In this document: piece by piece, positions 16,191 to 30,803 of the stretch
How the letters are laid out: the number at the start of each line of letters is the position of its first letter
Position numbering within the stretch: position 1 is the first letter of the stretch
Source: a bacterium
GTDB lineage: Bacteria; Zhuqueibacterota; Zhuqueibacteria; Residuimicrobiales; Residuimicrobiaceae
NCBI GenBank assembly: GCA_035388125.1
Contig: DAOOPF010000006.1
Span: 1-51,585 of the forward strand
Length of the DNA: 51,585 nt
Direction of reading: 5' to 3'
Position numbers and translations under genes: made by a program
The notes under the pieces: model-generated
The model's input: only the letters and a program-made list of their open reading frames with translations
Told to the model about the DNA's origin: nothing
The model's database searches: none

Positions 16191-17366
16191 TCAGAGCAGA
16201 GAGGCGGCCAGCATCAGCATATCATCACCGGGCTCGGCGCTGCTGAATTCGACCACGCGATCAACAATTGCTTTGGCGGTTTCGAGTGCTGAGGATCCCC
16301 TGCCCTCCTGGCGGATGACGCGCTGCAGCCCCTGGAGGCCGATGATTTTGCCGGCGGCGGTTTCGGCCTCAACCAGACCGTCAGTATAAAGCAGCAGCTT
16401 GTCGCCCGGTTTGTAGTCCATGGAGGCTGAGCGGAAAGCAGTCTTTTCGGTTCGGGCGAAACCGATAATGGCATTTTGCGAATCGAGCCGGGTGAAGCTC
16501 TGGCCGTCGCGCAGGAGGAGTGCGGCAGGATGGGCACTGCCGGCGTAGCGCAGTCTTTTTTTCTGCAGATCGACCTCCACAGCCATGATGGTCAGGAAGA
16601 GCGGGGTATCATAAAAGGTATCGATAAAGAATTCATTCAGTCGCCAGAGGAGTTCCGCGGGGTCGGGGGCCTGCTGCACGGCCCGGCGCCACTCATGGCA
16701 CACCCGGCTGACCAGGAGGGCCGCGGCGATGCCGTGACCGGTGACATCAATGACCACCAGGTAGAGTCTGTTCTCATCGATGAGATAGAGGTCGGCAAAG
16801 TCGCCGCCGAGGCCGATCATGGGCCGGTAGCAGATGCCAACATCGATCCCTGGGGTGGTGAAAGCAGAGGGCACCAGGCTGGCCTGGATCTGCCGCGCGA
16901 GGATGAGGTCGCGGTCGATCATCTCGTGGTGCATCTGCAGGATCTTTTCCTGGTCGGCCAGAGTCAGCAGGAGGCGGCGGCGTTCGATGGCATTGCGGAC
17001 TTTGATGGTCAGGGCGTCGGGCTGAACCGGCTTGGTCAGATATTCATAGGCGCCTTCGCGCATGGCCCGGACGGCGGTGCCCACCGAGGCGAAACCGGTG
17101 ATGATAATCACCTGGGTATAGGGGTCCTTCCGGGTCGCCTCCTTGAGCACATCAAGTCCGCTCAGTTTCTGCATCTGCATATCGCTGATGACCACGTCCA
17201 GCTTGGAGGCTTCGATTGTGGTCATGGCGGCCTCGCCGGAATCGGCTTCAAGAACGGTATAGGAGTCGCGCCGCAGAATTTCGACGAAGAGCCGGCGCAG
17301 GTTGGGGTCATCCTCGACCACGAGGATGGTGTGGTGCGAGAGGTCGGGCTTGTTTATTTCAGCCAT
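16191..17366 (-). CDS. response-regulator receiver fused to a PP2C/SpoIIE-type Ser/Thr phosphatase
   Basis: REC motifs ILVVEDD, VVISDMQM and LTKP. PP2C motifs GGDFADLY, VIDVTGHGIAAAL, LYTDGLVEA and GDDMLMLA. Confidence 0.85.
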   Translation of the reverse strand: MAEINKPDLSHHTILVVEDDPNLRRLFVEILRRDSYTVLEADSGEAAMTTIEASKLDVVISDMQMQKLSGLDVLKEATRKDPYTQVIIITGFASVGTAVRAMREGAYEYLTKPVQPDALTIKVRNAIERRRLLLTLADQEKILQMHHEMIDRDLILARQIQASLVPSAFTTPGIDVGICYRPMIGLGGDFADLYLIDENRLYLVVIDVTGHGIAAALLVSRVCHEWRRAVQQAPDPAELLWRLNEFFIDTFYDTPLFLTIMAVEVDLQKKRLRYAGSAHPAALLLRDGQSFTRLDSQNAIIGFARTEKTAFRSASMDYKPGDKLLLYTDGLVEAETAAGKIIGLQGLQRVIRQEGRGSSALETAKAIVDRVVEFSSAEPGDDMLMLAASLL

Positions 17367-19138: not shown

Positions 19139-19586
19139 CTTTTGAACTCTTGCGGTTTATCAGATATTTTACCATCCGGACCTGATTGCGCACGCCGGGT
19201 TTGATCGTATAGTCTACTTCATCCATCAGGGTGCGCATCAGAAAAATGCCCAGGCCGCCGACCCTGAGCTCGGCCAGATACTCTTTCATATCAGGCGGCT
19301 GCACTGTGTCCGGATTGAATCCCTTGCCATGGTCGGTGACGATGAGGGTCAGCTTCTGATAGTCGATCTGGATGGCCACGTCCAGCGTCTTGTCCTGCTC
19401 CGCCTCCCTGTAGGCGTGTTTCATCACGTTGGTGCACGCCTCGTCGATGGCGAGTTCGATTTTGCCGACATCATCCTCCGGAAAGCCGACCTTTTCGGCC
19501 ACCTTGCCGACAAAAAAGCGGATGATCTCCAGGTTTTCGGTTTGACTTGGTATGCGCAGTTTATATTCTATTTTGGCTTTCGGCAT
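19128..19586 (-). CDS. RsbW/SpoIIAB-type anti-sigma-like serine kinase (HATPase_c)
   Basis: ELAIDEACTNVMKHAY (N box), VTDHGKGFNP (G1) and VGGLGIFLMRTLMDEV (G2). 152 aa. Confidence 0.8.
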   Translation of the reverse strand: MPKAKIEYKLRIPSQTENLEIIRFFVGKVAEKVGFPEDDVGKIELAIDEACTNVMKHAYREAEQDKTLDVAIQIDYQKLTLIVTDHGKGFNPDTVQPPDMKEYLAELRVGGLGIFLMRTLMDEVDYTIKPGVRNQVRMVKYLINRKSSKVVN

Positions 19587-19668
19587 ATGGGGTTCCGCCT
19601 TGTATGCATTGGTAACATTCAGGGTCAGGGGTTATAAAGCCCGTCCTCGCAAGCGATCCGCCATTGGT

Positions 19669-20040
19669 TCACTCGTTTGATGTGGGGGCGGATTTCTGCG
19701 TAAAGGTCGCCAGCGCTTCCTCCTGCCGTTCGTATATCTGGTAAATGGTCGGGAAACCCAGCAAATCGAACACCCGGTAAATTTTGGGAGACATCGAACA
19801 CATCTTGATATCTCCGTTCTTGCCTCTGATTTCCTCGATGAAGCCCATGAAGACCCCGAGACCGGCGCTGCTGATATAGTTGAGATCCTTGAAATCGACG
19901 AGGATGTTGACCTGCTCTTCGTCGAGAAGTTTCTGGATCGCCTCTTCCAGGGTGGGAGCAGTGTGGGCATCGAGGAAGCCGATAATTTTGAGCGTCGTCA
20001 GATTTGTGCCATCCAGACGGACAATCTTAAAGTTTTCCAT
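19669..20040 (-). CDS. STAS-domain anti-anti-sigma factor (RsbV/SpoIIAA-like)
   Basis: 123 aa. DFKDLNYISSAGLGVF contains the conserved phosphorylatable Ser context. Confidence 0.8.
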   Translation of the reverse strand: MENFKIVRLDGTNLTTLKIIGFLDAHTAPTLEEAIQKLLDEEQVNILVDFKDLNYISSAGLGVFMGFIEEIRGKNGDIKMCSMSPKIYRVFDLLGFPTIYQIYERQEEALATFTQKSAPTSNE

Positions 20041-20076
20041 TCATGTTCCTCCATCTATGCTGAATTGACCCGTTTT

Positions 20077-22155
20077 TCAGACGGCTTGCAGGATGACAAA
20101 GGTCAAGTCATCATGCGATCGGGCGCTGCCGACAAATCCGCCGATTTCCTCGATCAGCTGTGACAGCAGCCGTCGTGGTGGCAGAGCGTGATAGCGTTGA
20201 AAGAGAGAGACCAGCCTGGTCTCTGTGAACTCTTCACCCCGCGCGTTGCGGGCTTCAACAGCTCCATCCGTGTAAAAAAGGAAGGTATCGCCGGCCCGGT
20301 ATGGCTGCCGGTACTCCTCGAGAGCCTGTGCAAAACTCGCCCCCTGGTCCAGTCCGAGCCCCATCCCTTTCGGTTCCAGGGTCTGAACCTTCTCCCCCGC
20401 TGCTGGTGCAAATAGGACCGGGCATTGACCGGCCCGGCAAAAGGTGATCTCCATTGCCCCGGTGTCGACGATGCCGTAGGCCAGGCTGACAAAGATATTG
20501 CGATCGATGTTGCCGTAAAGGGTTTCGTTGGCGGCGATCAGCAGCTCCTTGGGCGAATGATGCTTGGGGGCCAGGGCCTCCATGATGCCCTTGAGCTCGG
20601 CCATGATAAAGGCGGCAGAGGCGCCTTTGCCGGAGACATCCCCGATCACCAGCCCCAGACGCGTTGCGTCGATACGGAAAAAGTCGTAATAATCGCCACC
20701 CACCTCGTTGGCGGTTCTGCAGACCGCCTCAAGGGTGATGCCGGGCACTTGCGGCATCTTTTTGGGCAGCAGTTTCATCTGGGCATCGTGGGCGATACGC
20801 AGCTCCTGTTCGAGCCGTTCGCGTACAAGCGAGGATTCGACCAGTCTCGCGTTGCTGATGGCGACGACCGCCTGCTCGCTGAAAGCGCGCAGCATGTCGA
20901 GGTCATCCTGCTCAAAGCCATATTCGAGCTTTTTGGCGACGTAGAGGCACCCGATCGCTTCGCCGCCGCTTTCAAGCGGCACGGCGATGACCGACTGGAC
21001 GTCGTCTTTCCACAGCGACATCGGCACATTCAGTTCGCTCCGGCTGACATGGTTGACCAGCCTGGGCCGCAGCTGGCTGGTCGCCCAACGGGCGATGGCT
21101 TCAGGCACTCCCCGCTCCATTTCGGCTGCAGAGAGATTGCGCGCAGCCGCCAGCCGCCAGGAAGCCGACTCTTCGCCGGCCAGGGCGAGCCAGCCGGAAT
21201 CGGCTTCCGTCACCTGTACGGCCAGTTCCACAGTGGTCTCGGCAAGGCGGTCAAGATTGAATTCGGAGCTGATCGCCCTGCTCAGGGTATGCAGGGAAGA
21301 GAGCTGCTTGATCTGGCGGTCGAAAAGATGCGCTGTCGGCAAATGGAAAACAAGGGCGATGTAGGCCATGGAAATATAGATGGAGAGAAAAAGAAAGCCG
21401 AGGTCGACGAAGCGGCCAAGCACGGGGCTGAAGAGAGCGGCGGGATTGGCGGTATGAAATTTGATATAGAGCAGCCACTGCAGTGGCACCAGGATCAGTC
21501 CACCGAAGAAAAGGGTCAGCTTTTGCTTCCGGTTGAGATAATTGATCCAGGCGACGCGAAAAGAGTTGAGCACCATCAGATTGATGACGATGAAGAGGAG
21601 GATATAGCCAAGATTCTCACTGCTCAGGCGGTAGGAAAAGCGAAAATCGAGATCGTTGAGATTGGTTATGCTCAGAAGTGCATAGAGGATCAGAACCAGA
21701 ATGAGGATGAGGAAGTGGAGGGCGGTATTCTTCCGCTGCTTGATAAAGATCAGATTGCGCAAAGTGCCAAGGATGACCAGAACGAAAAGAGACGAAAAAA
21801 GGGCCCAGGCGGTGAGGATGAAATAGTTGACCAGACTGCCGTAGAGGACATTGCGACCTGTGCTGAGGCTCTGGTCGGCGAAGGGCTCCAGATTCGAGAT
21901 CAGCAGCAGCAGAAAAGTGCCGAGGATCAGATAAAAAAGCGAGCGCAGCCCGCGCAGAATGTTGCGGTCCGAAGCCCAGCGCTGCTGGTAGATGATGGGC
22001 AGGCAGAGAATCAGCGCCAGTGTGATGAATCCCTCCCTGAAATAGGCCAGCGCTCGGGAGTCGAGAAGGCCGCCGAGGACATTCAGGTCGATGAGTATAC
22101 CGCCCAGAAAAAGAGCGAGCGGCAGGATGAGGGAAAGCGGGCCGATTTTTCTCAT
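20077..22155 (-). CDS. polytopic membrane sensor with GAF domain and PP2C/SpoIIE phosphatase
   Basis: About 9 hydrophobic helices in the first roughly 290 aa, then a GAF-like module, then VGGDYYDFF, IGDVSGKGASAAF, FYTDGAVEA and HDDLTFVIL. Confidence 0.8.
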   Translation of the reverse strand: MRKIGPLSLILPLALFLGGILIDLNVLGGLLDSRALAYFREGFITLALILCLPIIYQQRWASDRNILRGLRSLFYLILGTFLLLLISNLEPFADQSLSTGRNVLYGSLVNYFILTAWALFSSLFVLVILGTLRNLIFIKQRKNTALHFLILILVLILYALLSITNLNDLDFRFSYRLSSENLGYILLFIVINLMVLNSFRVAWINYLNRKQKLTLFFGGLILVPLQWLLYIKFHTANPAALFSPVLGRFVDLGFLFLSIYISMAYIALVFHLPTAHLFDRQIKQLSSLHTLSRAISSEFNLDRLAETTVELAVQVTEADSGWLALAGEESASWRLAAARNLSAAEMERGVPEAIARWATSQLRPRLVNHVSRSELNVPMSLWKDDVQSVIAVPLESGGEAIGCLYVAKKLEYGFEQDDLDMLRAFSEQAVVAISNARLVESSLVRERLEQELRIAHDAQMKLLPKKMPQVPGITLEAVCRTANEVGGDYYDFFRIDATRLGLVIGDVSGKGASAAFIMAELKGIMEALAPKHHSPKELLIAANETLYGNIDRNIFVSLAYGIVDTGAMEITFCRAGQCPVLFAPAAGEKVQTLEPKGMGLGLDQGASFAQALEEYRQPYRAGDTFLFYTDGAVEARNARGEEFTETRLVSLFQRYHALPPRRLLSQLIEEIGGFVGSARSHDDLTFVILQAV

Positions 22156-22164
22156 GGCTGCCCG

Positions 22165-24582
22165 TCAGGGTTTGAGTACACGCATGATGATCATGGTCAT
22201 GTCGTCATGCTGCGGCGTATGGCCGACAAAATGGGCGACCTGGGTCTTGATCTTGGCGAGGATCTGGTCCGTCGGCAGGTCGGCCAGCCGTTTGATCGAC
22301 TGGGCGAGCCGCTCCTCGCTGAATTCGTTGGCATATTCATTCATCGCTTCGGAGAAACCATCAGTGTAGAGGACGAAGAGATCGCCCGGCTCGACGTCGA
22401 TGGTCTGTTCCCGGATGATTTCGCTGAAAATATCGCCCGGTTCAAGGCCGAGAGCGATGCCGGGCGGGAGCAGCCGTTCCAGTCGTTCCTGTTCAGCCCG
22501 GTACCAAAAGATCGGGTCATGTCCGGCGCGTGCGAAGGTCATTTTGCGGCCGGGGAGATCGAGAATGCCGAAGATGAGGCTGATAAAATGGCCGCGTTCG
22601 ACGTTCTGGTAAAAAAGCTTGTTCATCTCGATCATCACCTGGGCGGGACTCCAGGTGGTCCGGCTCAGCGAGCGCAGAAAGCCCTTGGTCAAGGTCATGT
22701 AAAAAGCGGCGGAGACCCCCTTGCCGGAGACATCGCCGATGGCAAAACCGAGCCGCCCGTCGCCCATTTCAATGAAATCATAGTAATCACCACCCACCTC
22801 GGAAGCCGGCAGGCAGATGCTGGAGATCTCGAGCCCCTCCATGCGCGGAGTCTGCTTCGGCAGAAAGCTCATCTGCACCCTGCTGGCGATCTCGAGTTCC
22901 CGTTTCAGACGCTCGTTCTCTACTATTTTTACGGCCTGGCGAGGTAAAAAGTTGCGCAGCTGCTCGCGGCTCATATGGACCGGCCATGCCCAGACCGCAA
23001 AGGCAGCGATACCCGCCAGAGGGAGCAGAAGGAAAAGGCCCGAGTACCAGAATGTGGGGTGCCCGAGGAGCAGCAGGGGTGCTGTGGCGAAGATAAGCGC
23101 ATAGGTGAAATGAGTGGTTACGACCGTCACCAGATCATAGCGGATGAAGATCATCGCAAAAGACGTCATGATCAGGAGCCCGACAATGAGATTGACGCCC
23201 AGAGGCTCGCTGGGCAGCTTCATCTCCATATGCAGTCCGACTGCCGTGATCAGCGCGAAGAGAAACACGGCCCATTTCGTACGATGCATCGACTTCATAA
23301 GCAGGGGCAGAAAAGCGAGAACCAGGGCGAACTGATACCAGAGCACTTCATTGATGACCCGGATAAAGCTGACCAGGAACGGGACCGAACTGGCGTCACG
23401 ATGCAGTTCTGCACATAAAGATGCAATGCTGATCGTGCCGAAAAGGGAGGCGATGGTCATCACCAAAGCGACCAGTCCGGCCAGAGCAGCGCCGAAGCCC
23501 AGACCGTGCAGCAGGGCACCCGCCATGGCACGGTAGCGGAGCTGACCGCGCAGCATCGCATCGAAATAAAGCAGCTTGTCGCCGGTGAGGGTTCGGGTAT
23601 TGGACTCCCCCACGGCGACCGCAAGAAACAGGGTCACGCCGACGAAAAAGCCGGAAAAGAGAGAACCGAGGAGCAAAGAATCGAGCCCGCTCAGGCCGGG
23701 CTCGAGCACAATCATCAGAATGGTCAGCGCACTGCCTGCCAGTGCCGGCACGAGAGCATAACGGAAATTGATGCTGTCCGTGCGCAGGCGGCGAATTAAG
23801 TCGACGATGAATATGATGCTGAGAGATATGATCAGCAGGCCAAAGGGAAGCGTCTGGATTATGCGTTCCTTTTGCCACGAGGAATAGGCCGGCGGATTGT
23901 ACTGGCGCGCAAATTTGCTGACAAGGGCGCCACTGACGACCACATTCAGCTGCTGCTGCAGGCCGCAGATCAGTTCATTGCGGTTATAAGTGAAGAGATG
24001 CTCGGTATGCGAATCGAGGATGCTGCTGCTCGTCTTGGAAAAGGTGTAATGATCGGCCTCCGGACCAAGTGCCCTAAGGAGGGTGGAATCGGCGATCGCG
24101 CGAGCCTGGAAAGCGGAAAGGTTGACGCCAATGCTCTCCTTTTTTACTTCGCTCCAGAAGGAAACCGGCACGCCGTAAAGGTCGATCTGTAAAAAGACCT
24201 CTGTGAAGGCCGCGGGAAAGGTATTGCGCGAAACACCGGCGGGCTGATCGTCATTTTCAGGCCGGCTCCAGCGCACTTGCCAGGTGTAGGCGGGCAGCTG
24301 GTGGAGGACGGAATCACGCTCCGCGGGCTTGAACTGGTTCTCGATATACTGGATAAGGTCTCGTCTGACCTCCAGAGTGGCGTGCGCCCGATACTCACCC
24401 GGCTGAAAGCCGAAGAGCTGCAGGTGCTGCCCTCCTTTCGTAATCGCTTCCGACCGGTTCAGGGAGATGTGACGGGGCAGCGGAGAAAAAATGCGCGGAG
24501 CCGCGAGCACAAAGATGACCAGGCCAGTCAGTGCGATGGCAGCAAGCAAAAGCCAGTTATACCCTTTTTTATCTCCGTGCAT
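22165..24582 (-). CDS. polytopic membrane sensor with large extracytoplasmic domain and PP2C/SpoIIE phosphatase
   Basis: One TM helix, a non-hydrophobic domain of about 230 aa, about 10 further TM helices, then VGGDYYDFI, IGDVSGKGVSAAF, LYTDGFSEA and HDDMTMIIM. Confidence 0.8.
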   Translation of the reverse strand: MHGDKKGYNWLLLAAIALTGLVIFVLAAPRIFSPLPRHISLNRSEAITKGGQHLQLFGFQPGEYRAHATLEVRRDLIQYIENQFKPAERDSVLHQLPAYTWQVRWSRPENDDQPAGVSRNTFPAAFTEVFLQIDLYGVPVSFWSEVKKESIGVNLSAFQARAIADSTLLRALGPEADHYTFSKTSSSILDSHTEHLFTYNRNELICGLQQQLNVVVSGALVSKFARQYNPPAYSSWQKERIIQTLPFGLLIISLSIIFIVDLIRRLRTDSINFRYALVPALAGSALTILMIVLEPGLSGLDSLLLGSLFSGFFVGVTLFLAVAVGESNTRTLTGDKLLYFDAMLRGQLRYRAMAGALLHGLGFGAALAGLVALVMTIASLFGTISIASLCAELHRDASSVPFLVSFIRVINEVLWYQFALVLAFLPLLMKSMHRTKWAVFLFALITAVGLHMEMKLPSEPLGVNLIVGLLIMTSFAMIFIRYDLVTVVTTHFTYALIFATAPLLLLGHPTFWYSGLFLLLPLAGIAAFAVWAWPVHMSREQLRNFLPRQAVKIVENERLKRELEIASRVQMSFLPKQTPRMEGLEISSICLPASEVGGDYYDFIEMGDGRLGFAIGDVSGKGVSAAFYMTLTKGFLRSLSRTTWSPAQVMIEMNKLFYQNVERGHFISLIFGILDLPGRKMTFARAGHDPIFWYRAEQERLERLLPPGIALGLEPGDIFSEIIREQTIDVEPGDLFVLYTDGFSEAMNEYANEFSEERLAQSIKRLADLPTDQILAKIKTQVAHFVGHTPQHDDMTMIIMRVLKP

Positions 24583-24636
24583 GGGTTTGAGAAGGATCCC
24601 TGGTTCAGAGAGCAGTGAGAATCATTAAATTTTTGA

Positions 24637-24665
24637 AAATTAACCAATTCTAAGCTTCAAATCAA
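24637..24665 (-). promoter_or_regulatory. sigma-70-type promoter heading the long minus-strand string
   Basis: The minus strand reads TTGATT (24660-24665), a 17-nt spacer, then TAATTT (24637-24642), in an AT-rich spacer about 50 nt upstream of the ATG at 24582. Confidence 0.5.
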
Positions 24666-24757
24666 GGGAAATATCACGGCCCGGGGGTGAGGAAACTGCA
24701 TCGAGTCCGCCCCGGCCGCTGCCGTTCTGACGGTCAAATGAAGGTGCTCCGGGACAG

Positions 24758-26254
24758 CTACTTGAGCAGGCTTTCGTCGAAGACCTGGGTCTCATAGAGC
24801 AGGATTTTCGCCCCTTCCCGCCAGCCATTGGCGGGAAGACCGGCCTTCTGGCAGAGGCTGGCCATCTCCTCCTCCTTGCTCTTCCAGCCGGCTTCGAGTG
24901 GCACTTCAGGCAGATAGGTGGCAGCGCGGCTGCCTTTGATGAGGATGATGCCGTGTTTGCCCATGACGAAATCATCAATACTTTCAGCTTCATAGACATC
25001 GGTCAGATAGACCGATATTTTGATTTTGATCTTGTCCAGCTCATCCATCTGCAGGGGCATGAAGCGCGGATCCTCAAAGGCAGCGGCCACCGCCCGGTCC
25101 GGTACAGCCAGGTAGAGCGGCTTGTCGGCCTCGTGCATGCCGATGCAGCCGCGCAGCGCCCCGTTTCTGGTGATGGTCACAAACACTCCCCGCTTCTCCT
25201 GCAGCACCGGAAGAGAGCTGTGCAGCTCCGGCATGGTGCCATGCTTCAAGTAATGCTTGATGCTTTCCCTGGCAGAGCGCAATAGTTCGATTTGTGCGTT
25301 GACGGGCAAAGGCTGAAATTGCTGTCTGTTCATTGCTTTCTCCTGCAGATAGAAGAGTCCTGCGGCATAGCCCACAATATATCCGCTTTTGTCGCCGGTG
25401 ACATCGCCGGAGTTGGTGCGTGCAACTATTTTGCCGTTGCAGCGGCCGCGCTCGAGTGCGGCCACCTGCATCACAGCAAGCGGTGTTCCGCCGCACGCCT
25501 GATACTGTCCGGATTCCATTCCCGCATGAAGCGCGCGCGGCTCCATGCGGGTGATGGCTGCGAGGGTGGCCGCATCGCTTGCAAGACCCGCATCATAGGA
25601 GTAGCCGTGATAGAGGTCCGTACTGGCAATGATGAGCGCTTTGCGCTGCGCAAGCAGGCTTCCCAGCGCCTTTCCCATCTTTGCGCAGGATTCCCAGTCA
25701 CAGGCCCCAACCATGATGGGCAGAAGCGGAGTCCCCGGAAAGAGGTGTTGCACAAAGGGAAGCTGGACTTCCAGACTGTGCTCCCGCGGCCCATGTCCTG
25801 TCGATGAGAGGCGAAAGAAGCGGCAGGAGGCGCTGAGGCGGGTTGCAGCCTGACTGTCGATCTCCACACGCCCCAGCGGGGTCTCGTAGGCCTGGCCGGG
25901 ATAGATGGTGGCACCGGTGAAATACTCCTGGTGGCTGGGGGCAAGAATCACGATCAAGTCATAGGAGCGGCCTGATACGGCCTTGTAGGCGGCCGCCGCC
26001 GTGCGGGCGGAATAGAGATAGCCTGCGTGCGGCGCGCAGAGACCGAGGATCTCGCTCGGGACAGCCGCTGCCGGCGCCTTGGCGAGGTAATGCGCTATTT
26101 CGGCGCGGAGCTGCGCACCATCACCGGGATAGAATTGTCCGGCGACGGCGGCTGTGCGGATTGGGCCCGTTTCCGCCCCCGACAGGCCGCCCGGATTCAT
26201 CAAAAGCAGAGCCCCCAACCATACTTGAAGTGATGCTTTATATGTCATGCGCAT
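24758..26254 (-). CDS. fusion of MEMO1-like (AmmeMemoRadiSam protein B) and AMMECR1 (protein A) modules with an N-terminal Sec-like signal peptide
   Basis: The start at 26254 or 26248 (MRMTYKASLQVWLGALLLMNPGGLSGAE) is preferred over 26332, which would overlap the upstream gene. Memo motifs: AVAGQFYPGD, LCAPHAGYLYS. AMMECR1 motif: GVFVTITRNGALRGCIGMHE. Confidence 0.75.
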   Translation of the reverse strand: MRMTYKASLQVWLGALLLMNPGGLSGAETGPIRTAAVAGQFYPGDGAQLRAEIAHYLAKAPAAAVPSEILGLCAPHAGYLYSARTAAAAYKAVSGRSYDLIVILAPSHQEYFTGATIYPGQAYETPLGRVEIDSQAATRLSASCRFFRLSSTGHGPREHSLEVQLPFVQHLFPGTPLLPIMVGACDWESCAKMGKALGSLLAQRKALIIASTDLYHGYSYDAGLASDAATLAAITRMEPRALHAGMESGQYQACGGTPLAVMQVAALERGRCNGKIVARTNSGDVTGDKSGYIVGYAAGLFYLQEKAMNRQQFQPLPVNAQIELLRSARESIKHYLKHGTMPELHSSLPVLQEKRGVFVTITRNGALRGCIGMHEADKPLYLAVPDRAVAAAFEDPRFMPLQMDELDKIKIKISVYLTDVYEAESIDDFVMGKHGIILIKGSRAATYLPEVPLEAGWKSKEEEMASLCQKAGLPANGWREGAKILLYETQVFDESLLK

Positions 26255-26298
26255 CCCCCCAGTAAAAGATAATATAAGCCATTTTCCAGATCTTGTTG

Positions 26299-27414
26299 TC
26301 ATGTCCATACTCCCGGAATCCTGGCTTTGCACTCCGGGCAGAGTGAGGATTTGATCCTGTTTTCAACGATGGTGTAGCCGAGCCGGCGGATGAGCAGTGC
26401 GTGACAGGCGGGACAGAAGGTGTTCTCGCCCTCATCGCCGGGGAGATTACCGGTGTAGACGAAATGCAAACCGGCCTCCAGCGCGATTTTTCTCGCCCCC
26501 TGCAGGGTTTTTACCGGTGTTGGCGGCAGGTTGGTCATCCGGTATTGGGGATAAAAGCGGGTGAAATGAACGGGTACTTCCACCCCCAGCTCGGAAGCGA
26601 TCCACCGGCAGAGGGAGGTCAGCTCGGCCTGGCTGTCATTTTCGCCCGGGATGACCAGGTATACGATTTCGAACCAGATTTGTTCCTGCCGCAGCAGTAC
26701 AAGCGTATCAAGGACAGGGCGCAGTTCCCCTGCGACGAGATCGCGATAAAACCGTTCGCTGAAGGCCTTGAGATCAATTTTGACGGCGGAGAGGACTCGG
26801 CACAGGTCGAGCATGGGTTCTTTACGGATATAGCCGTTGGAGATCATCACGCTGCGAATGCCCTGACGCCGTGCCATGAGGGCGATGTCGTGCATGTATT
26901 CGGCAAAGACGACCGGTTCATTGTAGGTGCAGGCGATCACCGGGCACCCCTCTTTCCGCGCCAGATCCGCCATCTGGCCGGGCGAGATCTCCATCGATTC
27001 CAGCTGTTCGGGGCGTGTCTGGGAGATCTCCCAATTCTGGCAGAACTTGCAAAAAACATTGCAGCCGGCGGTGCCGAGAGAAAGGGCCCGGCTGGAGGGC
27101 AGAAAGTGGAAGAGCGGCTTTTTCTCAATCGGATCGACATGGAGGGAGCAGGGTCTGCCATAGACCAGGGAGTAGTAGGTGCCGCCCCGGTTCTCTCTCA
27201 CGCCGCAGTAGCCCCGCTCGAGATCGTCGATAACGCAGCTGCGGGGACAGAGGGTGCAGCGGATTTTGCGATGGGGCAGTTTTTCATAGTAGCGCGCCTC
27301 GACCCCCTCCCCATCTGCGCCCGGGACGCGAGCGGCCGGGGCGGCGCGCCCTGCAGCCGCCAGGAGTGGGGCGGCACAGGCAACCGAACCGATGAAGGCT
27401 CTGCGCGTGATCAT
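26299..27414 (-). CDS. AmmeMemoRadiSam-type radical SAM enzyme with a twin-arginine-like N-terminal leader
   Basis: ORF 26299..27723 trimmed to the ATG at 27414, which follows GGAGGA. The leader is MITRRAFIGSVACAAPLLAAAGRAAPA. Other motifs are KIRCTLCPRSC, DPIEKKPLFHF and GCNVFCKFCQNWEIS. Confidence 0.75.
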   Translation of the reverse strand: MITRRAFIGSVACAAPLLAAAGRAAPAARVPGADGEGVEARYYEKLPHRKIRCTLCPRSCVIDDLERGYCGVRENRGGTYYSLVYGRPCSLHVDPIEKKPLFHFLPSSRALSLGTAGCNVFCKFCQNWEISQTRPEQLESMEISPGQMADLARKEGCPVIACTYNEPVVFAEYMHDIALMARRQGIRSVMISNGYIRKEPMLDLCRVLSAVKIDLKAFSERFYRDLVAGELRPVLDTLVLLRQEQIWFEIVYLVIPGENDSQAELTSLCRWIASELGVEVPVHFTRFYPQYRMTNLPPTPVKTLQGARKIALEAGLHFVYTGNLPGDEGENTFCPACHALLIRRLGYTIVENRIKSSLCPECKARIPGVWT

Positions 27415-27487
27415 ATATTCCTCCAGCGTGGTTCTCCCCTCCCGACCGGGGTGGGCGGGAGCGGCATCGGGTACAGGTCTATTCTGT

Positions 27488-28453
27488 TCATACCTGTACG
27501 ATCTCGATCTGTTCCGGATCGGCGATGCCCAGCCCTGTTCGAGCAGCTGATTGGATATAGGAGGGCTCGCGGCCGGCATCGCGAAGAGAGGGCATTCCGG
27601 CCTGCCGGCGCTGGTCTTCAACGATCCCCCAGGCGACGCTGTCCATCGCCACCATATCGGTCGCCAGGAGCAGACGCTGGAGGGGCCAGCACCACTGCGG
27701 CATGTAGGGTGGTCCGCCTTCATACTGGGCGGTGATGGCGTCGCAGATGGTCAGCCTGGTCTTGTCGCGAAGGAGCGGTATACGGCAGAGGTCGGCGACA
27801 TAGGGATCGCCGCAGTGGTCGTGGTATTTGTTGGGATTATCGATGGCGCCGAAATAATTCTTCATGGCGGCGCTCAGGCCGACGATGCCGTGGTCTTTCA
27901 GAACGGGCAGGTTGATCAGGGCAGTGCACATGCCGGCGACCAGATTGGAGAGGCGGCTGCACACCGATCCGCTTTCATAAAGCCGGCGCGAATAGCCAGC
28001 GACGTCGTTGCCGAAACAGCGCACACGGTCCGGCCCGGTGGCGATGGCGTATCCGCCCCGTTTGAGGTCGGCGTTGAGGCGGTCCCAGATGATGATCTGT
28101 TCCGGCTTGAGGCCGATTTCGAGCAGACGGTCGACGACGAGGTCGGCCAGTACGGGGTTGGTCGAGATGCCGCGCCCGGCGAGGCAATTGACCTTGAGGC
28201 CGACAACATCCCGGGGTGAAAAGAGGCTGGACCACGCCTGGCGGGCCGGCAGACCGAGAAGAGCCTCCAGGCCGCGGTCCAGTGCGCCGCCAAGACCCTG
28301 CAGGTCAGGCTTACGCAGATCGACAGCGGTGCGGGCCAGGACCACGCGCGCCTTGCCGGTCCCATTCGACTCCGGCCTCTGCCCGGAACCGTGGAGCAGA
28401 CAGGTGCCGAGCCCCATCAGGCTTCCGGTATGGAGGAACTGCCGTCTGTTCAT
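27488..28453 (-). CDS. DUF362-family protein with a twin-arginine signal
   Basis: MNRRQFLHTGSLMGLGTCLLHG leader. VVGLKVNCLAGRGISTNPVLADLVV and LINLPVLKDHGIVGLSAAMKNYFG resemble PF04015. Confidence 0.7.
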   Translation of the reverse strand: MNRRQFLHTGSLMGLGTCLLHGSGQRPESNGTGKARVVLARTAVDLRKPDLQGLGGALDRGLEALLGLPARQAWSSLFSPRDVVGLKVNCLAGRGISTNPVLADLVVDRLLEIGLKPEQIIIWDRLNADLKRGGYAIATGPDRVRCFGNDVAGYSRRLYESGSVCSRLSNLVAGMCTALINLPVLKDHGIVGLSAAMKNYFGAIDNPNKYHDHCGDPYVADLCRIPLLRDKTRLTICDAITAQYEGGPPYMPQWCWPLQRLLLATDMVAMDSVAWGIVEDQRRQAGMPSLRDAGREPSYIQSAARTGLGIADPEQIEIVQV

Positions 28454-28472
28454 AGGCTTCCGCCGGGTGAAA

Positions 28473-28515
28473 TAAAAAACCGTGATCCCCTCGCAGACCG
28501 CACGAGATCACGGTT
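28473..28515 (-). terminator. rho-independent terminator after the PAS/GAF gene
   Basis: 10-bp stem aaccgtgatc / gatcacggtt (28478-28487 / 28506-28515) with an 18-nt loop. On the minus strand it is followed by TTTTTTATTT. Confidence 0.65.
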
Positions 28516-28544
28516 GAACTGTCAGATATGCGGTCGTATGCCGG

Positions 28545-30803
28545 TCAGCGCAGGAAGCGGTCCACTAGCCTGCGCAGTCCGGTGCTGTTTTCTTCCGGAT
28601 ATTCCATCTCCGCTGAATCTGGTCCGGCTTCGGGCTCTGGTTCAGCCGGAGGTTCTGCACTCTGCGGCCTTTCTTTAGCCTGGACATAGAGCATCCGGTT
28701 GTCGATGGCGATCCCCACCTGGTTGGCGAGGATTTCAAGGATATGAACGCTTTCGGTGGTCGGAAGTTTACCGTCAGCCGGGTCATCGGCGAGGATGAAA
28801 CCGATGATTTTGCCTTCGCGCGACTTGATGGGCACGAGCAGCAGGGCATAGCGCGGCCAGCCATCCGCATAGTGGCCATTGCTGAGATTGCCATAATAGA
28901 TCTGTTTGAGATGGCTCAGCACCTCCTCTTCGCTGCTGATCAGAAAGGACTTGCCGCGGCGATACTCTTCGCGCAGGAGCGCGCTGAAATCGCGCAGATC
29001 GAAGGTGAGTTCCTGGATCTGCCCGAGTTTGATGCGATCGTCGCAGGCGACCGCCTTGGTTTCGAGCTGTCCACTCTTCTTGCTGATGAGAACGAGCGAG
29101 ACCAGATTGAATTCGAGGGAGAATTTGACGGACCAGACCACCTCTTTCAACAGCTCGTTGAGGCTGAGGTAGAGTTTGAAGATATTGCTGTTGATAAGGA
29201 TCTGTTTCAGCCGGCGATTGCGGCGTTCGATGGTCGAGAAGCGGTAATAGTTTTCGATCACCATGGCTGACAGCTGGCTGAAAATCTCGAGATTGTGAAA
29301 GGTGGATCTGGCCGGGGTGACGCTGTCGAGGGGCTCGTCGAGGGAGATGTAGCCGAACTGGTGGCCGCGATGGTCGGCGAGGCGGAGCAGGACCAGATCG
29401 CGTGGATGCCAACGCGATTCGACTGCCGGCAGGTTCGCCTGCACAAGCGGCAGGGCCGGATTGTCGAGCGAGCCGGCAACGACGCTCTCCTGACTGTCAT
29501 AGATCACCTTGACCTGGGCTTTGTCGACAAAGAGGCGGTCGACTACCTCCTCCGGCACCTCGAGGGCTTTCTCCCTGGCTGCAGCGGCGCGCTCGTCACC
29601 ATAGCCGACCATGGCGTGTTTGGTGTAAGCCTTTTTACGGCGGTCGAGCAGGGCGACAGTAGAACGCTGAAAACCGAATATTTGGCAGACCACTTCACCT
29701 AACCGCTTGAGCAGAACATTGAGGGGCTCGGTATAGCTCATCTGCACAAGGTCGAAAAGGTGCCGGACCATGACGCCCTGGTCGATCTGGCTCTGATCAT
29801 CGGCCGTCTCTCTTTTCTCCGGAGCGACGAAAGTGACGCTGCCGCGAAAACCGATGATCCTTTTCTCCCTGGATTCGTCCCGCAGCATGCGGATTTTCAG
29901 GCTGACCGGCCGCTTTACTCCCACCTTGTCAATGAACTGGAGCTGGATGGGGAAAATATCCTGATCGGCCTGACCGGTGAATATATCATTAAAGAGGTGT
30001 TGTTCCTCATCGCGCGAAAGCAGGTCCGAGAGCGAGAGTTCGAGGAGCTCCTCCTCGGTATAGTTGAGCATGGTCTGCAGGGTTCTGTTGGCTGAAAGAA
30101 AGCGCCCGCGGCGATCACAGATAAAAAACCCTTCATCGGGCGCCTCGGCCTCCTTGACGCTGGTGCCGGCAGGAGCGGCTTTCGAAGCTGCGGCCGCAGC
30201 CCGTTCCCGGGCGGCCTGATCCGTCTCTTCGCGCTGGGCCTGGATCCGTGCGCGCTCTTTCCTGGCGGCCTCCTCCACTTCAGCCTGAAAACGTTCCGTC
30301 TCCAGACGCGCGGCTTCAGCCCGAAGGGCCTCCAGCCGTACGGCTTCGGCTCGGGCTGCATCTTCTTTCTCTTTGGCCAGGCGCAGAGCTTCCGCCTTTT
30401 CGGCCTCGGCGCGGGCTGCTTCTTCGAGCCTTTTCAGATGGCCGGCATGGCTTTGACGGATGGCTTCGGCCAGGGCGGTCAGAAAGCCCTTGCGTTTGTA
30501 GAGGAGGGTCACCGACCCATAGGATTGCAGCGCTTCGGCAAGCGACTCCTCGCTCTCTTCGATCATGATGATAGCCGGAACCTGGCGGCTCATGGCGCCG
30601 ATCTGATCCAGGGTCGCTGAGGGCTCGTCGCGGAGCAGAATACTGTCAATGACATAGACATCATCGAGCTTTTGCGCGCTCGAATCAAAAACCTCATTCA
30701 AAGAGGTGGCGCCTGTAAGATGAAAATCTTCTCCCTGGGCTCTAAGCAGCTGGCTGGTTGCGTCAAAGTAAGAGGTGATGGGGTGAGCTATCTGGATTTT
30801 CAT
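28545..30803 (-). CDS. output-less signalling protein: receiver-like N-terminus, Ala/Glu/Arg coiled coil, PAS, two GAF-like modules
   Basis: The receiver-sized N-terminal domain shows no clear acidic pocket. It is followed by about 90 aa of EAARAEAEKAEALRLAKEKEDAARAEAVRLEALRAEAARLE..., then a PAS-like segment (FFICDRRGRFLSANRTLQTMLNYTEEELL), then two GAF-like regions. No kinase, cyclase or HTH domain was recognised. Confidence 0.6.
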   Translation of the reverse strand: MKIQIAHPITSYFDATSQLLRAQGEDFHLTGATSLNEVFDSSAQKLDDVYVIDSILLRDEPSATLDQIGAMSRQVPAIIMIEESEESLAEALQSYGSVTLLYKRKGFLTALAEAIRQSHAGHLKRLEEAARAEAEKAEALRLAKEKEDAARAEAVRLEALRAEAARLETERFQAEVEEAARKERARIQAQREETDQAARERAAAAASKAAPAGTSVKEAEAPDEGFFICDRRGRFLSANRTLQTMLNYTEEELLELSLSDLLSRDEEQHLFNDIFTGQADQDIFPIQLQFIDKVGVKRPVSLKIRMLRDESREKRIIGFRGSVTFVAPEKRETADDQSQIDQGVMVRHLFDLVQMSYTEPLNVLLKRLGEVVCQIFGFQRSTVALLDRRKKAYTKHAMVGYGDERAAAAREKALEVPEEVVDRLFVDKAQVKVIYDSQESVVAGSLDNPALPLVQANLPAVESRWHPRDLVLLRLADHRGHQFGYISLDEPLDSVTPARSTFHNLEIFSQLSAMVIENYYRFSTIERRNRRLKQILINSNIFKLYLSLNELLKEVVWSVKFSLEFNLVSLVLISKKSGQLETKAVACDDRIKLGQIQELTFDLRDFSALLREEYRRGKSFLISSEEEVLSHLKQIYYGNLSNGHYADGWPRYALLLVPIKSREGKIIGFILADDPADGKLPTTESVHILEILANQVGIAIDNRMLYVQAKERPQSAEPPAEPEPEAGPDSAEMEYPEENSTGLRRLVDRFLR

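What the first reader, a model, noticed from the sequence alone, without database searches (positions are those of the whole stretch)
24758..28453. AmmeMemoRadiSam-type cluster in which every product carries an export leader, with a Memo-AMMECR1 fusion and a DUF362 partner
Seen: three co-directional genes lie between the terminator at 28473-28515 and the next promoter at 24637-24665.
(1) 27488-28453 is DUF362-like (VVGLKVNCLAGRGISTNP, LINLPVLKDHG) and opens MNRRQFLHTGSLMGLGTCLLHG.
(2) 26299-27414 is a radical SAM enzyme (GCNVFCKFCQNWEIS, DPIEKKPLFHF). It opens MITRRAFIGSVACAAPLLAAAGRAAPA directly after a GGAGGA Shine-Dalgarno.
(3) 24758-26254 opens MRMTYKASLQVWLGALLLMNPGGLSGAE. It then fuses a Memo-like module (GQFYPGD, LCAPHAGYLYS) to an AMMECR1 module (GVFVTITRNGALRGCIGMHE).

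Known: AMMECR1, MEMO1-like protein and a dedicated radical SAM enzyme form the co-occurring AmmeMemoRadiSam trio (TIGR04335/04336/04337). Its substrate and function are unknown, and it is normally described as three separate proteins.

Inference: here components A and B are one polypeptide. All three gene products look targeted to or across the inner membrane. A Tat-type DUF362 protein is a candidate fourth component. This would be an envelope-located version of an already enigmatic system.
Basis: partly seen in the sequence, partly recalled or inferred. Interest (0 to 1): 0.72.

Follow-up and report, generated by a model that had tools for sequence, protein, structure and literature searches.

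The report
Exported AmmeMemoRadiSam cluster with DUF362 partner
Three adjacent genes encode a version of the unexplained AMMECR1/Memo/radical-SAM system in which every protein carries a conserved export signal and a fourth, LarA-like DUF362 protein is a regular partner, which implies radical-SAM chemistry outside the cytoplasm, where it has not been described in the papers I could search.

Summary
On the minus strand lie DUF362 (27488-28453), a TIGR04337 radical SAM enzyme (26299-27414) and a Memo-AMMECR1 fusion (24758-26254). All family models hit well above their cut-offs.

The leaders are real and conserved:
- The rSAM leader is a canonical S/T-R-R-x-F-(I/L)-K Tat signal in about 114 of its 120 closest relatives and in 74 of 81 loci from at least 8 phyla. 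In the window no other start codon can produce the conserved N-terminus.
- The DUF362 leader is Tat-type in at least 98 of 120 relatives.
- The fusion carries a Sec-type or lipoprotein leader in 97 of 118 relatives.

DUF362 lies directly upstream of the rSAM gene in 45 of 73 evaluable loci (median gap 16 nt). In a control sample it did so in 12 of 22 Tat-type loci and in 0 of 38 others (p = 5e-7).

Independent domain fusions point the same way. TIGR04337 is found fused to FMN_bind, NosR/NapH-like, DsbD-like, CBM and beta-propeller modules. This suggests an extracytoplasmic rSAM fed by trans-membrane electron conduits.

The A-B fusion is common, not special. Chemistry and substrate remain unknown. 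Verdict: a new variant of a known kind, and high interest.

The parts
27488..28453 (-). DUF362 protein (321 aa), LarA-like fold, with an N-terminal Tat-type leader
   Evidence: PF04015 at E = 4e-16. AlphaFold model pLDDT 88. The only significant PDB fold matches are LarA-family nickel-pincer enzymes, probability 1.0, TM-score 0.43-0.48. The 120 closest homologues were collected.
28355..28453 (-). DUF362 leader MNRRQFLHTGSLMGLGTCLLHG..., about residues 1-33, ahead of the conserved ARVV strand
   Evidence: RR is invariant in alignment A2. An RR motif is present in at least 98 of 120 homologues. In the model, residues 3-19 form a helix and 20-31 are disordered.
26299..27414 (-). AmmeMemoRadiSam radical SAM enzyme (371 aa). 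It has the CNVFCKFC radical SAM cluster motif, an N-terminal CX2CX3C...C motif and a C-terminal CxxC...CxxC motif
   Evidence: TIGR04337 at 399 bits against a cut-off of 220. Invariant cysteines are listed in alignment A1.
27298..27414 (-). rSAM Tat leader MITRRAFIGSVACAAPLLAAAGRAAPA|ARV..., residues 1-39. It has a TRRAFI motif, an uncharged h-region, a basic residue (R23) in the c-region and an A-P-A candidate cleavage site
   Evidence: This ATG is the only in-frame start before the conserved domain. The consensus of 114 homologues is S/T-R-R-x-F-I/L-K. 74 of 81 loci are Tat-type.
27419..27424 (-). Shine-Dalgarno sequence GGAGGA of the rSAM gene
   Evidence: Read directly in the sequence.
24758..26254 (-). 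Memo-AMMECR1 fusion protein (498 aa, or 496 aa from the ATG at 26248)
   Evidence: TIGR04336 and TIGR04335 both hit. AlphaFold pLDDT is 92.6 but pTM only 0.63, so the domains are confident and their relative orientation is not.
26174..26254 (-). Sec-type signal peptide M(RM)TYKASLQVWLGALLLMNPGGLSGA|E, residues 1-27
   Evidence: 97 of 118 full-length homologues carry a hydrophobic leader, and 23 of those have a lipobox. The internal Met19 is Leu in the 97%-identical P0001. The model has low confidence over residues 1-30.
25355..26158 (-). Memo-like domain, residues 33-300. Invariant residues include H76, H108, D213, H216 and C254
   Evidence: By alignment offset to MEMO1, H76, H108 and C254 correspond to the metal ligands H49, H81 and C244 of human MEMO1 (PMC11081632).
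24779..25285 (-). AMMECR1 domain, residues 324-492, with invariant LRGCIG and DPRF motifs
   Evidence: It aligns to PDB entries 1VAJ and 1ZQ7.
28473..28515 (-). Terminator-like hairpin with a U-run, after the upstream PAS-GAF gene. It ends 19 nt before the DUF362 ATG
   Evidence: RNA fold of -25.3 kcal/mol with a 12-bp stem; sequence read.

Best explanation
This is an extracytoplasmic (periplasm-facing) form of the AmmeMemoRadiSam system, with a fourth protein.

The two proteins expected to fold around cofactors in the cytoplasm each carry a twin-arginine (Tat) signal. These are the multi-cysteine radical SAM enzyme and the LarA-like DUF362 protein. The Memo-AMMECR1 fusion carries a Sec-type signal peptide, which is replaced by a lipoprotein signal in many orthologues.

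DUF362 and the rSAM gene are translationally close partners and probably form a complex. In some lineages DUF362 has lost its own signal and would have to travel with the rSAM enzyme.

Outside the cytoplasm, the rSAM enzyme would cleave SAM to make a 5'-deoxyadenosyl radical. Its nearest characterised relatives are the pyruvate formate-lyase-type activases. The radical would act on a substrate held or further processed by the metal-binding Memo domain and the Cys-bearing AMMECR1 domain. That substrate would be an envelope molecule (lipid or isoprenoid, cell-wall component or exported protein), not a nucleic acid.

In relatives, electrons would come from trans-membrane conduits (NapH/NosR-like, DsbD-like, FMN_bind modules). 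No such gene lies in this window.

Shown: gene content, family membership, conservation of the leaders, and specific linkage of DUF362 to Tat-type rSAM genes.
Inferred: export, complex formation, the chemistry and the substrate class.
For: Family membership.

rSAM leader:
- Only one possible start codon in the window.
- RR motif in 106 of 120 closest homologues by a strict pattern.
- Canonical S/T-RR-x-F-I/L-K consensus in 114.
- 74 of 81 genome loci from KSB1, Calditrichota, Acidobacteriota, Aminicenantes, Planctomycetota, Zixibacteria, Eisenbacteria, Verrucomicrobiota and others.
- An apparently leaderless public gene call, P0165, is a start miscall; an in-frame MSVSRRKFIQ lies upstream.

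DUF362:
- Tat motif in at least 98 of 120 homologues, and RR is invariant in A2.
- Directly upstream on the same strand in 45 of 73 evaluable loci.
- Median gap 16 nt, with 27 of 45 overlapping or within 20 nt.
- In a control sample seeded with leaderless rSAMs, 12 of 22 Tat-type loci have it against 0 of 38 non-Tat loci, p = 4.6e-7.
- 12 of the 45 DUF362 genes lack a leader while overlapping a Tat-rSAM gene.

Fusion:
- Leader in 97 of 118 homologues, 23 with a lipobox.
- 39 of 41 in the genome loci and 15 of 15 next to Tat-type rSAM genes in the control.
- A leaderless fusion, P0100, sits near a leaderless 347-aa rSAM with no DUF362.

Independent domain fusions, all bona fide TIGR04337 members:
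- Anchor + FMN_bind + rSAM with no TM segment between them (P0388, P0404).
- Anchor + CBM_11 or beta-propeller + rSAM (P0372, P0368).
- NosR/NapH-like + an extra TM after the cytoplasmic CX3CP motif + rSAM (P0366, P0376, P0386).
- DsbD_2 + rSAM (P0374, P0379).
- Lipobox + rSAM (P0389).
- Signal peptide + Memo + AMMECR1 + rSAM (P0413).
FMN_bind, NapH-like and DsbD modules are established extracytosolic electron-transfer parts (PMC8238504).
Against: - No trained signal-peptide or topology predictor was available. Export rests on motif heuristics and conservation.
- No source of SAM or of a low-potential reductant is known in the periplasm, and the window has no electron-conduit gene.
- Some relatives carry Sec-like or lipoprotein leaders on the rSAM enzyme (L062, L064, L076, L078, P0389, P0413). 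That would require Fe-S cluster insertion outside the cytoplasm, which is not known to occur.
- One clade (L110, L116, L129, L149, L161) has a leaderless rSAM next to a TM-anchored Memo-AMMECR1 fusion.
- P0380 has an anchor whose flanking charges suggest a cytoplasmic orientation.
- L085 pairs a leaderless rSAM with a signal-bearing fusion.
- The rSAM leader has a position-conserved Cys, which is unusual for a plain signal peptide.
- The substrate and reaction are entirely unknown.
Confidence: 0.7

Rival explanations
1. Cytoplasmic maturation followed by co-export. The rSAM enzyme does its SAM-dependent step in the cytoplasm on a partner protein (DUF362 or Memo-AMMECR1), as activases of the PFL-AE type act on proteins. 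It is then carried out through Tat as part of the complex. The exported product, not the rSAM enzyme, is the working extracytoplasmic catalyst.
For: The closest characterised relatives are protein-activating enzymes: PFL-AE, YjjW and NrdG rank next after TIGR04337. Leaderless DUF362 genes overlap Tat-rSAM genes in 12 of 45 loci, which implies a complex formed before export. This model removes the need for SAM outside the cell.
Against: The Memo-AMMECR1 fusion uses Sec or lipoprotein signals, so it crosses the membrane unfolded and separately. That makes it a poor cytoplasmic substrate. Fusions of rSAM to extracytosolic electron-transfer modules (FMN_bind, NapH/NosR-like + extra TM, DsbD_2) suggest that the exported enzyme is kept reduced, and so active, outside the cell.
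Confidence: 0.18
2. The leaders are membrane tethers, not export signals. The proteins stay at the cytoplasmic face of the inner membrane, where SAM and reductants are available.
For: Some relatives have plain TM anchors whose flanking charges suit an N-out/C-in orientation (P0380, the L110 fusion). Leaderless rSAM genes occur beside anchored Memo-AMMECR1 fusions. The chemistry would be easier to explain.
Against: A canonical S/T-RR-x-F-L-K motif with a weakly hydrophobic h-region and a basic c-region is the signature of Tat export, not of cytoplasmic tethering. 23 orthologues of the fusion carry lipoboxes, which are processed only after translocation. FMN_bind, CBM_11 and beta-propeller modules fused to the rSAM domain are extracytoplasmic domain types.
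Confidence: 0.1
3. DUF362 is only a neighbour with its own unrelated periplasmic function, for example a LarA-like racemase. The system is the ordinary trio.
For: DUF362 is absent from 28 of 73 evaluable Tat-type loci. It has no NCBIfam model linked to the system. Tat-bearing DUF362 paralogues occur elsewhere in some loci.
Against: It lies on the same strand, directly upstream, with a median gap of 16 nt, in at least 8 phyla. It is found with 12 of 22 Tat-type rSAM genes and 0 of 38 non-Tat ones. The order DUF362, rSAM, fusion is kept even where the flanking genes differ.
Confidence: 0.05
4. The leaders are annotation artefacts, and the true starts lie downstream.
For: Public gene calls sometimes start at MIEARYY (P0165, P0240, P0175). 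The fusion and DUF362 each have an internal in-frame ATG, at residues 19 and 13.
Against: The rSAM gene has no alternative in-frame start before its conserved N-terminus. The RR motif is conserved at the residue level across phyla. The internal Met of the fusion is not conserved. The 'leaderless' P0165 has the leader in frame upstream.
Confidence: 0.01

Closest known systems
AmmeMemoRadiSam system (NCBIfam TIGR04335 / TIGR04336 / TIGR04337), classical cytoplasmic form
   Same: All three family models hit above their cut-offs and the genes are adjacent and co-directional. The radical SAM CX3CX2C motif, the Memo metal ligands and the AMMECR1 LRGCIG motif are conserved.
   Different: Every product carries an export signal. 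A and B are fused, which is common in this clade. A DUF362 gene is linked specifically to the Tat-type form. The function of the classical system is itself unknown. MEMO1 is known only as an Fe/Cu-binding protein with a dioxygenase-like site (PMC11081632).
Glycyl-radical-enzyme activases (PFL-AE, TIGR02493; YjjW; NrdG)
   Same: These are the next-best NCBIfam hits for the rSAM enzyme, covering the shared radical SAM core.
   Different: Their scores fall far below their cut-offs (54 bits against 232). They are cytoplasmic. They lack the N-terminal CX2CX3C...C and C-terminal zinc-ribbon-like motifs, and no glycyl-radical partner is encoded here.
LarA lactate racemase superfamily (nickel-pincer nucleotide enzymes; Pfam clan CL0471)
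   Same: The DUF362 model matches only LarA-family structures with significance: 7S91, 9EID, 5HUQ and others, probability 1.0. DUF362 and DUF2088 share a Pfam clan (PMC11770544).
   Different: No sequence-level match to any solved structure. TM-scores are only 0.4-0.5. The NPN-binding residues could not be checked. No lar cofactor-synthesis genes were seen in the window.
Tat substrates exported with cofactors, including hitchhiker pairs (my own knowledge: HybO-HybC and DmsA-DmsB in E. coli), and NapG-NapH / NosR electron conduits
   Same: The rSAM and DUF362 leaders carry a canonical Tat motif. Leaderless DUF362 genes sit next to a signal-bearing partner. NapH-NapG-like polyferredoxin genes lie beside DUF362-rSAM in 12 loci and are fused to the rSAM domain in some proteins.
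   Different: No radical SAM enzyme is described as a Tat substrate in the papers I could search. The window has no conduit gene.
ApbE-flavinylated extracytosolic electron-transfer systems (Meheust et al. 2021, PMC8238504)
   Same: FMN_bind, NapH-like and DsbD-like modules of the kinds catalogued there are fused to TIGR04337 domains in relatives.
   Different: The main text of that paper does not mention radical SAM, Memo, AMMECR1 or DUF362. These modules are not present in the window.

Membership tests
AmmeMemoRadiSam system | Radical SAM enzyme matching TIGR04337 above its cut-off, with a CX3CX2C motif | tested here: met
   399 bits against a cut-off of 220. C118-x3-C122-x2-C125 is invariant.
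AmmeMemoRadiSam system | Memo-like protein B (TIGR04336) | tested here: met
   234 bits against a cut-off of 26, over residues 33-300 of the fusion.
AmmeMemoRadiSam system | AMMECR1-like protein A (TIGR04335) | tested here: met
   160 bits against a cut-off of 99, over residues 324-492.
AmmeMemoRadiSam system | The three components are encoded together | tested here: met
   They are adjacent on the same strand, with a 44-50 nt gap between the rSAM gene and the fusion.
Tat (twin-arginine) signal peptide, on rSAM and DUF362 | S/T-R-R-x-F-L-K motif near the N-terminus | tested here: met
   TRRAFI in the rSAM enzyme and NRRQFL in DUF362. The motif is conserved in 114 of 120 and at least 98 of 120 homologues respectively.
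Tat (twin-arginine) signal peptide, on rSAM and DUF362 | Uncharged, moderately hydrophobic h-region, and a c-region with a small-x-small cleavage site, often with a basic residue | tested here: inconclusive
   By eye and by a simple heuristic the features are present (rSAM h-region AFIGSVACAAPLLAAAG, then R23, then A-P-A). No SignalP or TatP was available, and the cleavage site is not established.
Tat (twin-arginine) signal peptide, on rSAM and DUF362 | Tat-dependent translocation of the folded protein | not testable with these tools
   This needs reporter fusions or cell fractionation.
Sec signal peptide / lipoprotein signal, on the Memo-AMMECR1 fusion | Basic n-region, hydrophobic h-region, and a -3/-1 small-residue site or a lipobox | tested here: met
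   R2 and K6, then LQVWLGALLLM, then S-G-A|E. 97 of 118 homologues have a leader and 23 of these a lipobox. This is heuristic only.
DUF362 (PF04015) | Pfam model hit above the gathering score | tested here: met
   60 bits against a cut-off of 24, covering 198 of 200 model positions.
LarA / nickel-pincer nucleotide enzymes | LarA-like two-domain fold | tested here: met
   Foldseek gives probability 1.0 to 14 LarA-family chains, though TM-scores are only 0.36-0.48.
LarA / nickel-pincer nucleotide enzymes | NPN-tethering Lys, Ni-binding His and catalytic His residues | not tested
   No sequence alignment to LarA was obtainable. DUF362 has invariant K186-D187-H188, K209, H211 and C176, but their equivalence to LarA residues is unknown. 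I do not file it as a LarA enzyme.
Glycyl-radical activases (PFL-AE) | Family model above its cut-off, and a glycyl-radical enzyme partner | tested here: not met
   54 bits against a cut-off of 232. No glycyl-radical enzyme gene is in the neighbourhood.

The most novel reading that the evidence does not exclude
A large, multi-phylum clade of AmmeMemoRadiSam systems performs radical SAM chemistry outside the cytoplasm. The Tat-exported, Fe-S-loaded rSAM enzyme is probably in complex with a LarA-like DUF362 protein. It is kept reduced by trans-membrane conduits (NapH/NosR-, DsbD- or FMN_bind-type). It works with an exported Memo-AMMECR1 protein on an envelope substrate. SAM would either travel with the enzyme as a regenerated cofactor or be supplied by the co-occurring polytopic spermidine-synthase-like membrane protein. 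As far as I could find, this would be the first extracytoplasmic radical SAM system.
Probability: 0.45. Interest if true: 0.9.

Novelty: new variant of a known kind. Interest (0 to 1): 0.76.

Why it matters
Radical SAM enzymes are treated as cytoplasmic because they need SAM, an oxygen-sensitive Fe-S cluster and a low-potential electron donor. A conserved, canonical Tat signal on one family, across many phyla, challenges that view. The challenge is strengthened by matching export signals on its partners and by fusions to known extracytosolic electron-transfer modules.

The finding also helps with an old puzzle. The function of Memo and AMMECR1, which are conserved from bacteria to humans and linked to disease, is unknown. 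For this clade the location would rule out nucleic-acid substrates and point to envelope lipids, isoprenoids, cell-wall components or exported proteins. It also adds testable partners: DUF362, and in relatives a membrane spermidine-synthase-like protein and NapH/NosR-like conduits.

Finally, it gives DUF362, a large uncharacterised family, a concrete functional context.

Tried and rejected
- **Sequence search of DUF362 against PDB**, with a single sequence and with a profile. Nothing meaningful came back. Only fold comparison linked it to LarA.
- **Rfam scan of 24400-29000** for a riboswitch or attenuator around the terminator-like hairpin. No match at E <= 1.
- **Consensus promoter/terminator scan.** The hairpin was confirmed by folding instead.
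- **Crude hydropathy topology of the spermidine-synthase-like membrane protein.** TM counts were inconsistent, so I abandoned it. The side its soluble domain faces is unresolved.
- **Burroughs et al. 2019 (JBC)**, the main comparative paper on Memo-AMMECR1 contexts, is not held. What I say about it rests on my memory of its abstract.
- **Look-ups of leaderless Memo-AMMECR1 fusions** as an outgroup. Most had no adjacent rSAM gene; only L082 was informative. The metagenome control scan replaced this approach.
- **Lipobox reading of the conserved Cys in the rSAM leader.** Rejected, because the Cys lies only 8-12 residues after RR and the hydrophobic stretch follows it rather than preceding it.
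- **Search of the window for conduit or partner genes** (NapH/NosR-like, DsbD_2, FMN_bind, SpmSyn-like, DUF6599). None found.
- **AlphaFold of the fusion.** It gave confident domains but an unreliable inter-domain arrangement (pTM 0.63), so I make no claim about a composite active site.

Full report
**1. What is in the window**

Three co-directional minus-strand ORFs occupy 24758-28453.

- DUF362 (27488-28453, 321 aa) matches PF04015 end to end, at E = 4e-16. It matches no NCBIfam model.
- The second gene (26299-27414, 371 aa) scores 399 bits on TIGR04337, the AmmeMemoRadiSam radical SAM enzyme, against a cut-off of 220. The model begins only at residue 40.
- The third gene (24758-26254, 498 aa) joins a Memo domain (TIGR04336, residues 33-300) to an AMMECR1 domain (TIGR04335, residues 324-492).

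The rSAM gene has a GGAGGA four bases ahead of its ATG. No other in-frame ATG, GTG or TTG lies between that ATG and the conserved EARYYEKL N-terminus, so the 39-residue leader must be translated. The fusion probably starts at its second ATG (26248), which leaves the leader unchanged.

A 12-bp hairpin with a U-run at 28515-28473 follows the upstream PAS-GAF gene and ends 19 nt before the DUF362 start. Nothing in Rfam matches the region.

The flanking genes are:
- on the upstream side of the cluster (higher coordinates): ribosomal protein S1, a TPR/SPOR protein, homocysteine S-methyltransferase, a Usp protein and the PAS-GAF protein;
- on the downstream side (lower coordinates): four SpoIIE-type phosphatases and a B12-radical SAM gene.

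The same order occurs in KSB1 genomes (L001, L085, L087). The source is most likely a KSB1-related uncultured bacterium.

**2. Are the leaders real?**

*rSAM enzyme.*
- Of the 120 closest homologues, 114 have RR. Their consensus around it is S/T-R-R-x-F-(I/L)-K followed by an A/L/G-rich uncharged stretch, which is the textbook Tat motif.
- Among 80 loci from species-representative genomes plus the window, 74 of 81 rSAM genes are Tat-type, 4 have a Sec-like hydrophobic leader, 2 are cut by a contig end and 1 is unclear.
- A public gene call that looked leaderless (P0165, MIEARYY...) has MSVSRRKFIQ... in frame upstream.

*DUF362.* At least 98 of 120 homologues carry the RR motif, and RR is invariant in alignment A2.

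*Memo-AMMECR1 fusion.*
- 97 of 118 full-length homologues have a hydrophobic leader and 23 of these have a lipobox.
- The leader varies in sequence but is constant in presence, and switches between signal-peptidase I and II types. That is how genuine signal peptides evolve.
- The window's internal Met19 is Leu in a 97%-identical homologue.

The AlphaFold models of DUF362 and the fusion show a low-confidence N-terminal helix detached from well-folded domains.

**3. Is DUF362 a partner?**

In the genome sample, DUF362 lies directly upstream of the rSAM gene on the same strand in 45 of 73 evaluable loci. The median gap is 16 nt, and 27 of the 45 overlap or lie within 20 nt. The lineages include KSB1, Calditrichota, Acidobacteriota, Aminicenantes, Zixibacteria, Eisenbacteria, Planctomycetota and Thermoanaerobaculia.

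As a control, I built a profile from leaderless family members and scanned metagenome contigs. That sample held 43 leaderless, 27 Tat-type and 7 hydrophobic-leader rSAM genes. DUF362 was directly upstream in 12 of 22 evaluable Tat-type loci and in 0 of 38 others (Fisher p = 4.6e-7). Every Memo-AMMECR1 gene next to a Tat-type rSAM gene had a leader, 15 of 15. One leaderless fusion (P0100) sits near a leaderless 347-aa rSAM gene with no DUF362.

In 12 of the 45 linked pairs, DUF362 has no leader of its own, and in most of them it overlaps the Tat-rSAM gene by 1-4 nt. The simplest reading is co-export as a complex.

**4. What is DUF362?**

The model is good (pLDDT 88). Its only significant PDB neighbours are LarA-family nickel-pincer-nucleotide racemases. 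This agrees with the shared Pfam clan (PMC11770544).

Sequence searches find no solved relative. I therefore could not test whether the cofactor-binding residues are kept. Invariant residues include K87, D124-R125, C176, K186-D187-H188, K209, H211 and a QYEGGP motif. A Tat signal fits a protein that binds a cofactor before export.

**5. Independent evidence from domain architectures**

A search of 1.8 billion cluster representatives gave 1631 relatives at E <= 1e-30. Among the best 150:
- 33 were Tat-type;
- about 6 had hydrophobic leaders;
- 65 were leaderless stand-alone proteins;
- about 26 were leaderless C-terminal fusions, mostly rSAM-AMMECR1-Memo triple fusions;
- 14 were N-terminal fusions.

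Seven of these N-terminal fusions plus two of the triple fusions were checked against NCBIfam, and all nine pass the TIGR04337 cut-off. The N-terminal fusions fall into these architectures:
- TM anchor, FMN_bind, rSAM, with no TM segment between the last two (P0388, P0404).
- Anchor, CBM_11 or beta-propeller, rSAM (P0372, P0368).
- FMN_bind, NapH/NosR-like membrane module, one extra TM after the second CX3CP motif, then rSAM (P0366, P0376, P0386).
- DsbD_2, rSAM (P0374, P0379).

One representative has a lipobox before the rSAM domain (P0389). Another is signal peptide, Memo, AMMECR1, rSAM (P0413).

FMN_bind, NapH-like and DsbD-like modules are the recognised parts of extracytosolic electron-transfer systems (PMC8238504). 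Putting the rSAM domain on their outer side agrees with the Tat signal, and it suggests how the cluster is kept reduced.

In the locus samples, a NapH-NapG-like polyferredoxin lies beside DUF362-rSAM in 12 loci.

**6. Mechanism: how far the evidence goes**

*Shown:* family membership, conserved export signals on all three products, and specific, tight linkage of DUF362 to Tat-type rSAM genes.

*Inferred:* that the proteins are exported; that DUF362 and the rSAM enzyme form a complex; that the rSAM enzyme makes a 5'-deoxyadenosyl radical outside the cytoplasm; and that the substrate is an envelope molecule.

The Memo domain keeps the residues that bind Fe or Cu in human MEMO1. H76, H108 and C254 correspond by alignment offset to H49, H81 and C244. 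AMMECR1 keeps its LRGCIG cysteine.

The function of the classical system is unknown. MEMO1's 'primary molecular function remains unknown' (PMC11081632). From my memory of its abstract, Burroughs et al. 2019 linked Memo contexts to nucleotide-base and isoprenoid modification. Only the second would fit an exported system.

How SAM would reach the periplasm is open. It could travel bound to the folded enzyme and be regenerated each cycle, as in lysine 2,3-aminomutase (my own knowledge). The main rival is that the SAM-dependent step happens in the cytoplasm before co-export.

**7. Difficulties**

- Some relatives carry Sec-like or lipoprotein leaders on the rSAM enzyme. That would require Fe-S insertion outside the cytoplasm.
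- A clade starting at VQCELCP has a leaderless rSAM next to a TM-anchored Memo-AMMECR1 and a giant SpmSyn-like + NapH/NosR-like membrane fusion. Not every membrane-associated variant need face outward.
- The rSAM Tat leader has a position-conserved Cys, in 103 of 112 homologues, clustered at positions +7/+8 and +10/+11 counted from the residue after RR. These are the same cysteines as positions 8-9 and 11-12 in the numbering, where the first R is 0. Cys makes up 7.3% of that stretch, against 1.8% in DUF362 leaders. I cannot explain this.
- All signal calls here are heuristic.

**8. Known or new?**

The trio, the A-B fusion and DUF362 are all catalogued families. I found no paper that describes Tat- or Sec-targeted AmmeMemoRadiSam components, a DUF362 partner, or any exported radical SAM enzyme. 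Databases may still display signal predictions for these proteins.

I rate this a new variant of a known kind. The window's copy is a typical member of a large clade, not a one-off.

Noticed in passing
window 27376-27378 (Cys13 of the rSAM leader); homologues P0121-P0240: The h-region of the rSAM Tat leader has a position-conserved cysteine. 103 of 112 homologues have a Cys within 22 residues after RR, clustered at +7/+8 and +10/+11 counted from the residue after RR, and 28 have CxxC. Cys makes up 7.3% of this stretch, against 1.8% in DUF362 leaders. It is not placed like a lipobox, and I have no explanation.
   Followed up: partly
L016 9122-11261; L008, L018, L021 and others (47 of 80 genome loci); not in the window: A 700-800 aa polytopic membrane protein with a central spermidine-synthase-like domain (PF01564, E = 6e-30) is the most frequent extra neighbour of Tat-type rSAM genes. 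It is often the next gene downstream. In the control sample it occurs in 17 of 27 Tat-type loci but only 3 of 43 leaderless ones. The side its soluble domain faces could not be resolved.
   Followed up: partly
L110 9787-13707; L149 3185-6631: Giant fusions (1149-1307 aa) join the spermidine-synthase-like membrane protein to a NapH/NosR-like polyferredoxin module. They lie downstream of a leaderless rSAM gene and a TM-anchored Memo-AMMECR1 gene.
   Followed up: no
P0366, P0376, P0386, P0374, P0379, P0388, P0404, P0372, P0368 (family representatives): Bona fide TIGR04337 domains are fused at their N-termini to FMN_bind, NosR/NapH-like, DsbD_2, CBM_11 or beta-propeller modules. These fusions link the rSAM enzyme to extracytosolic electron-transfer machinery.
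   Followed up: yes
L008, L010, L018, L022, L024, L030, L042, L045, L046, L048, L052, L056: These DUF362 genes have no leader and in most cases overlap a Tat-bearing rSAM gene by 1-4 nt. The lineages are mainly Aminicenantes and Zixibacteria. The pattern suggests Tat 'hitchhiker' co-export and a physical DUF362-rSAM complex.
   Followed up: partly
L081, L083, L084, L086: Leaderless Memo-AMMECR1 fusions sit next to BcrAD/BadFG-type ATPase genes and HgdD/DUF2229-like genes, rather than next to an rSAM gene. In L083, L084 and L086 the BcrAD/BadFG gene lies directly upstream; in L081 these genes lie downstream. That machinery is the ATP-driven electron-activation type that serves 2-hydroxyacyl-CoA dehydratases. 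This may be a different low-potential partner for the same two domains.
   Followed up: no
L062, L064, L076, L078; P0389; P0413: Some rSAM orthologues carry Sec-like signal peptides, and one carries a lipobox (LLSGC). P0413 is signal peptide, Memo, AMMECR1, rSAM on one chain. Sec export of an Fe-S enzyme would need cluster assembly outside the cytoplasm.
   Followed up: no
window 28454-28544: The terminator-like hairpin after the PAS-GAF gene ends only 19 nt before the DUF362 start codon. That leaves no room for a promoter in between, so the cluster is transcribed either by read-through or from a promoter overlapping the end of the upstream gene. No Rfam element was found.
   Followed up: partly
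window 16191-24582 and 14801-16183: Four consecutive SpoIIE/PP2C phosphatase genes lie directly downstream: two polytopic membrane forms, one GAF form and one response-regulator form. A B12-binding radical SAM gene follows. The two large SpoIIE genes are syntenic with KSB1 loci L001 and L085.
   Followed up: no
L001 10605-11171; L087 7534-8127: KSB1 relatives have a second, stand-alone, leaderless AMMECR1 gene right after the fusion. The window lacks it.
   Followed up: no
P0392, P0407, P0416, P0421 and about 20 more representatives: Leaderless rSAM-AMMECR1-Memo triple fusions of 900-1150 aa are common among family representatives. Their source organisms are not given.
   Followed up: no
L087 4876-5000 (P0165); also P0175, P0240: Public gene calls for some Tat-type rSAM enzymes start at the conserved MxEARYY and drop the leader. 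Annotation-based surveys would therefore undercount the exported form.
   Followed up: partly
L021 13107-14133; 17 loci: A second, divergent Tat-bearing DUF362 paralogue (PF04015, E = 2e-51) lies about 4 kb downstream in Acidobacteriota loci. A secreted DUF6599 protein occurs in 15 loci.
   Followed up: no
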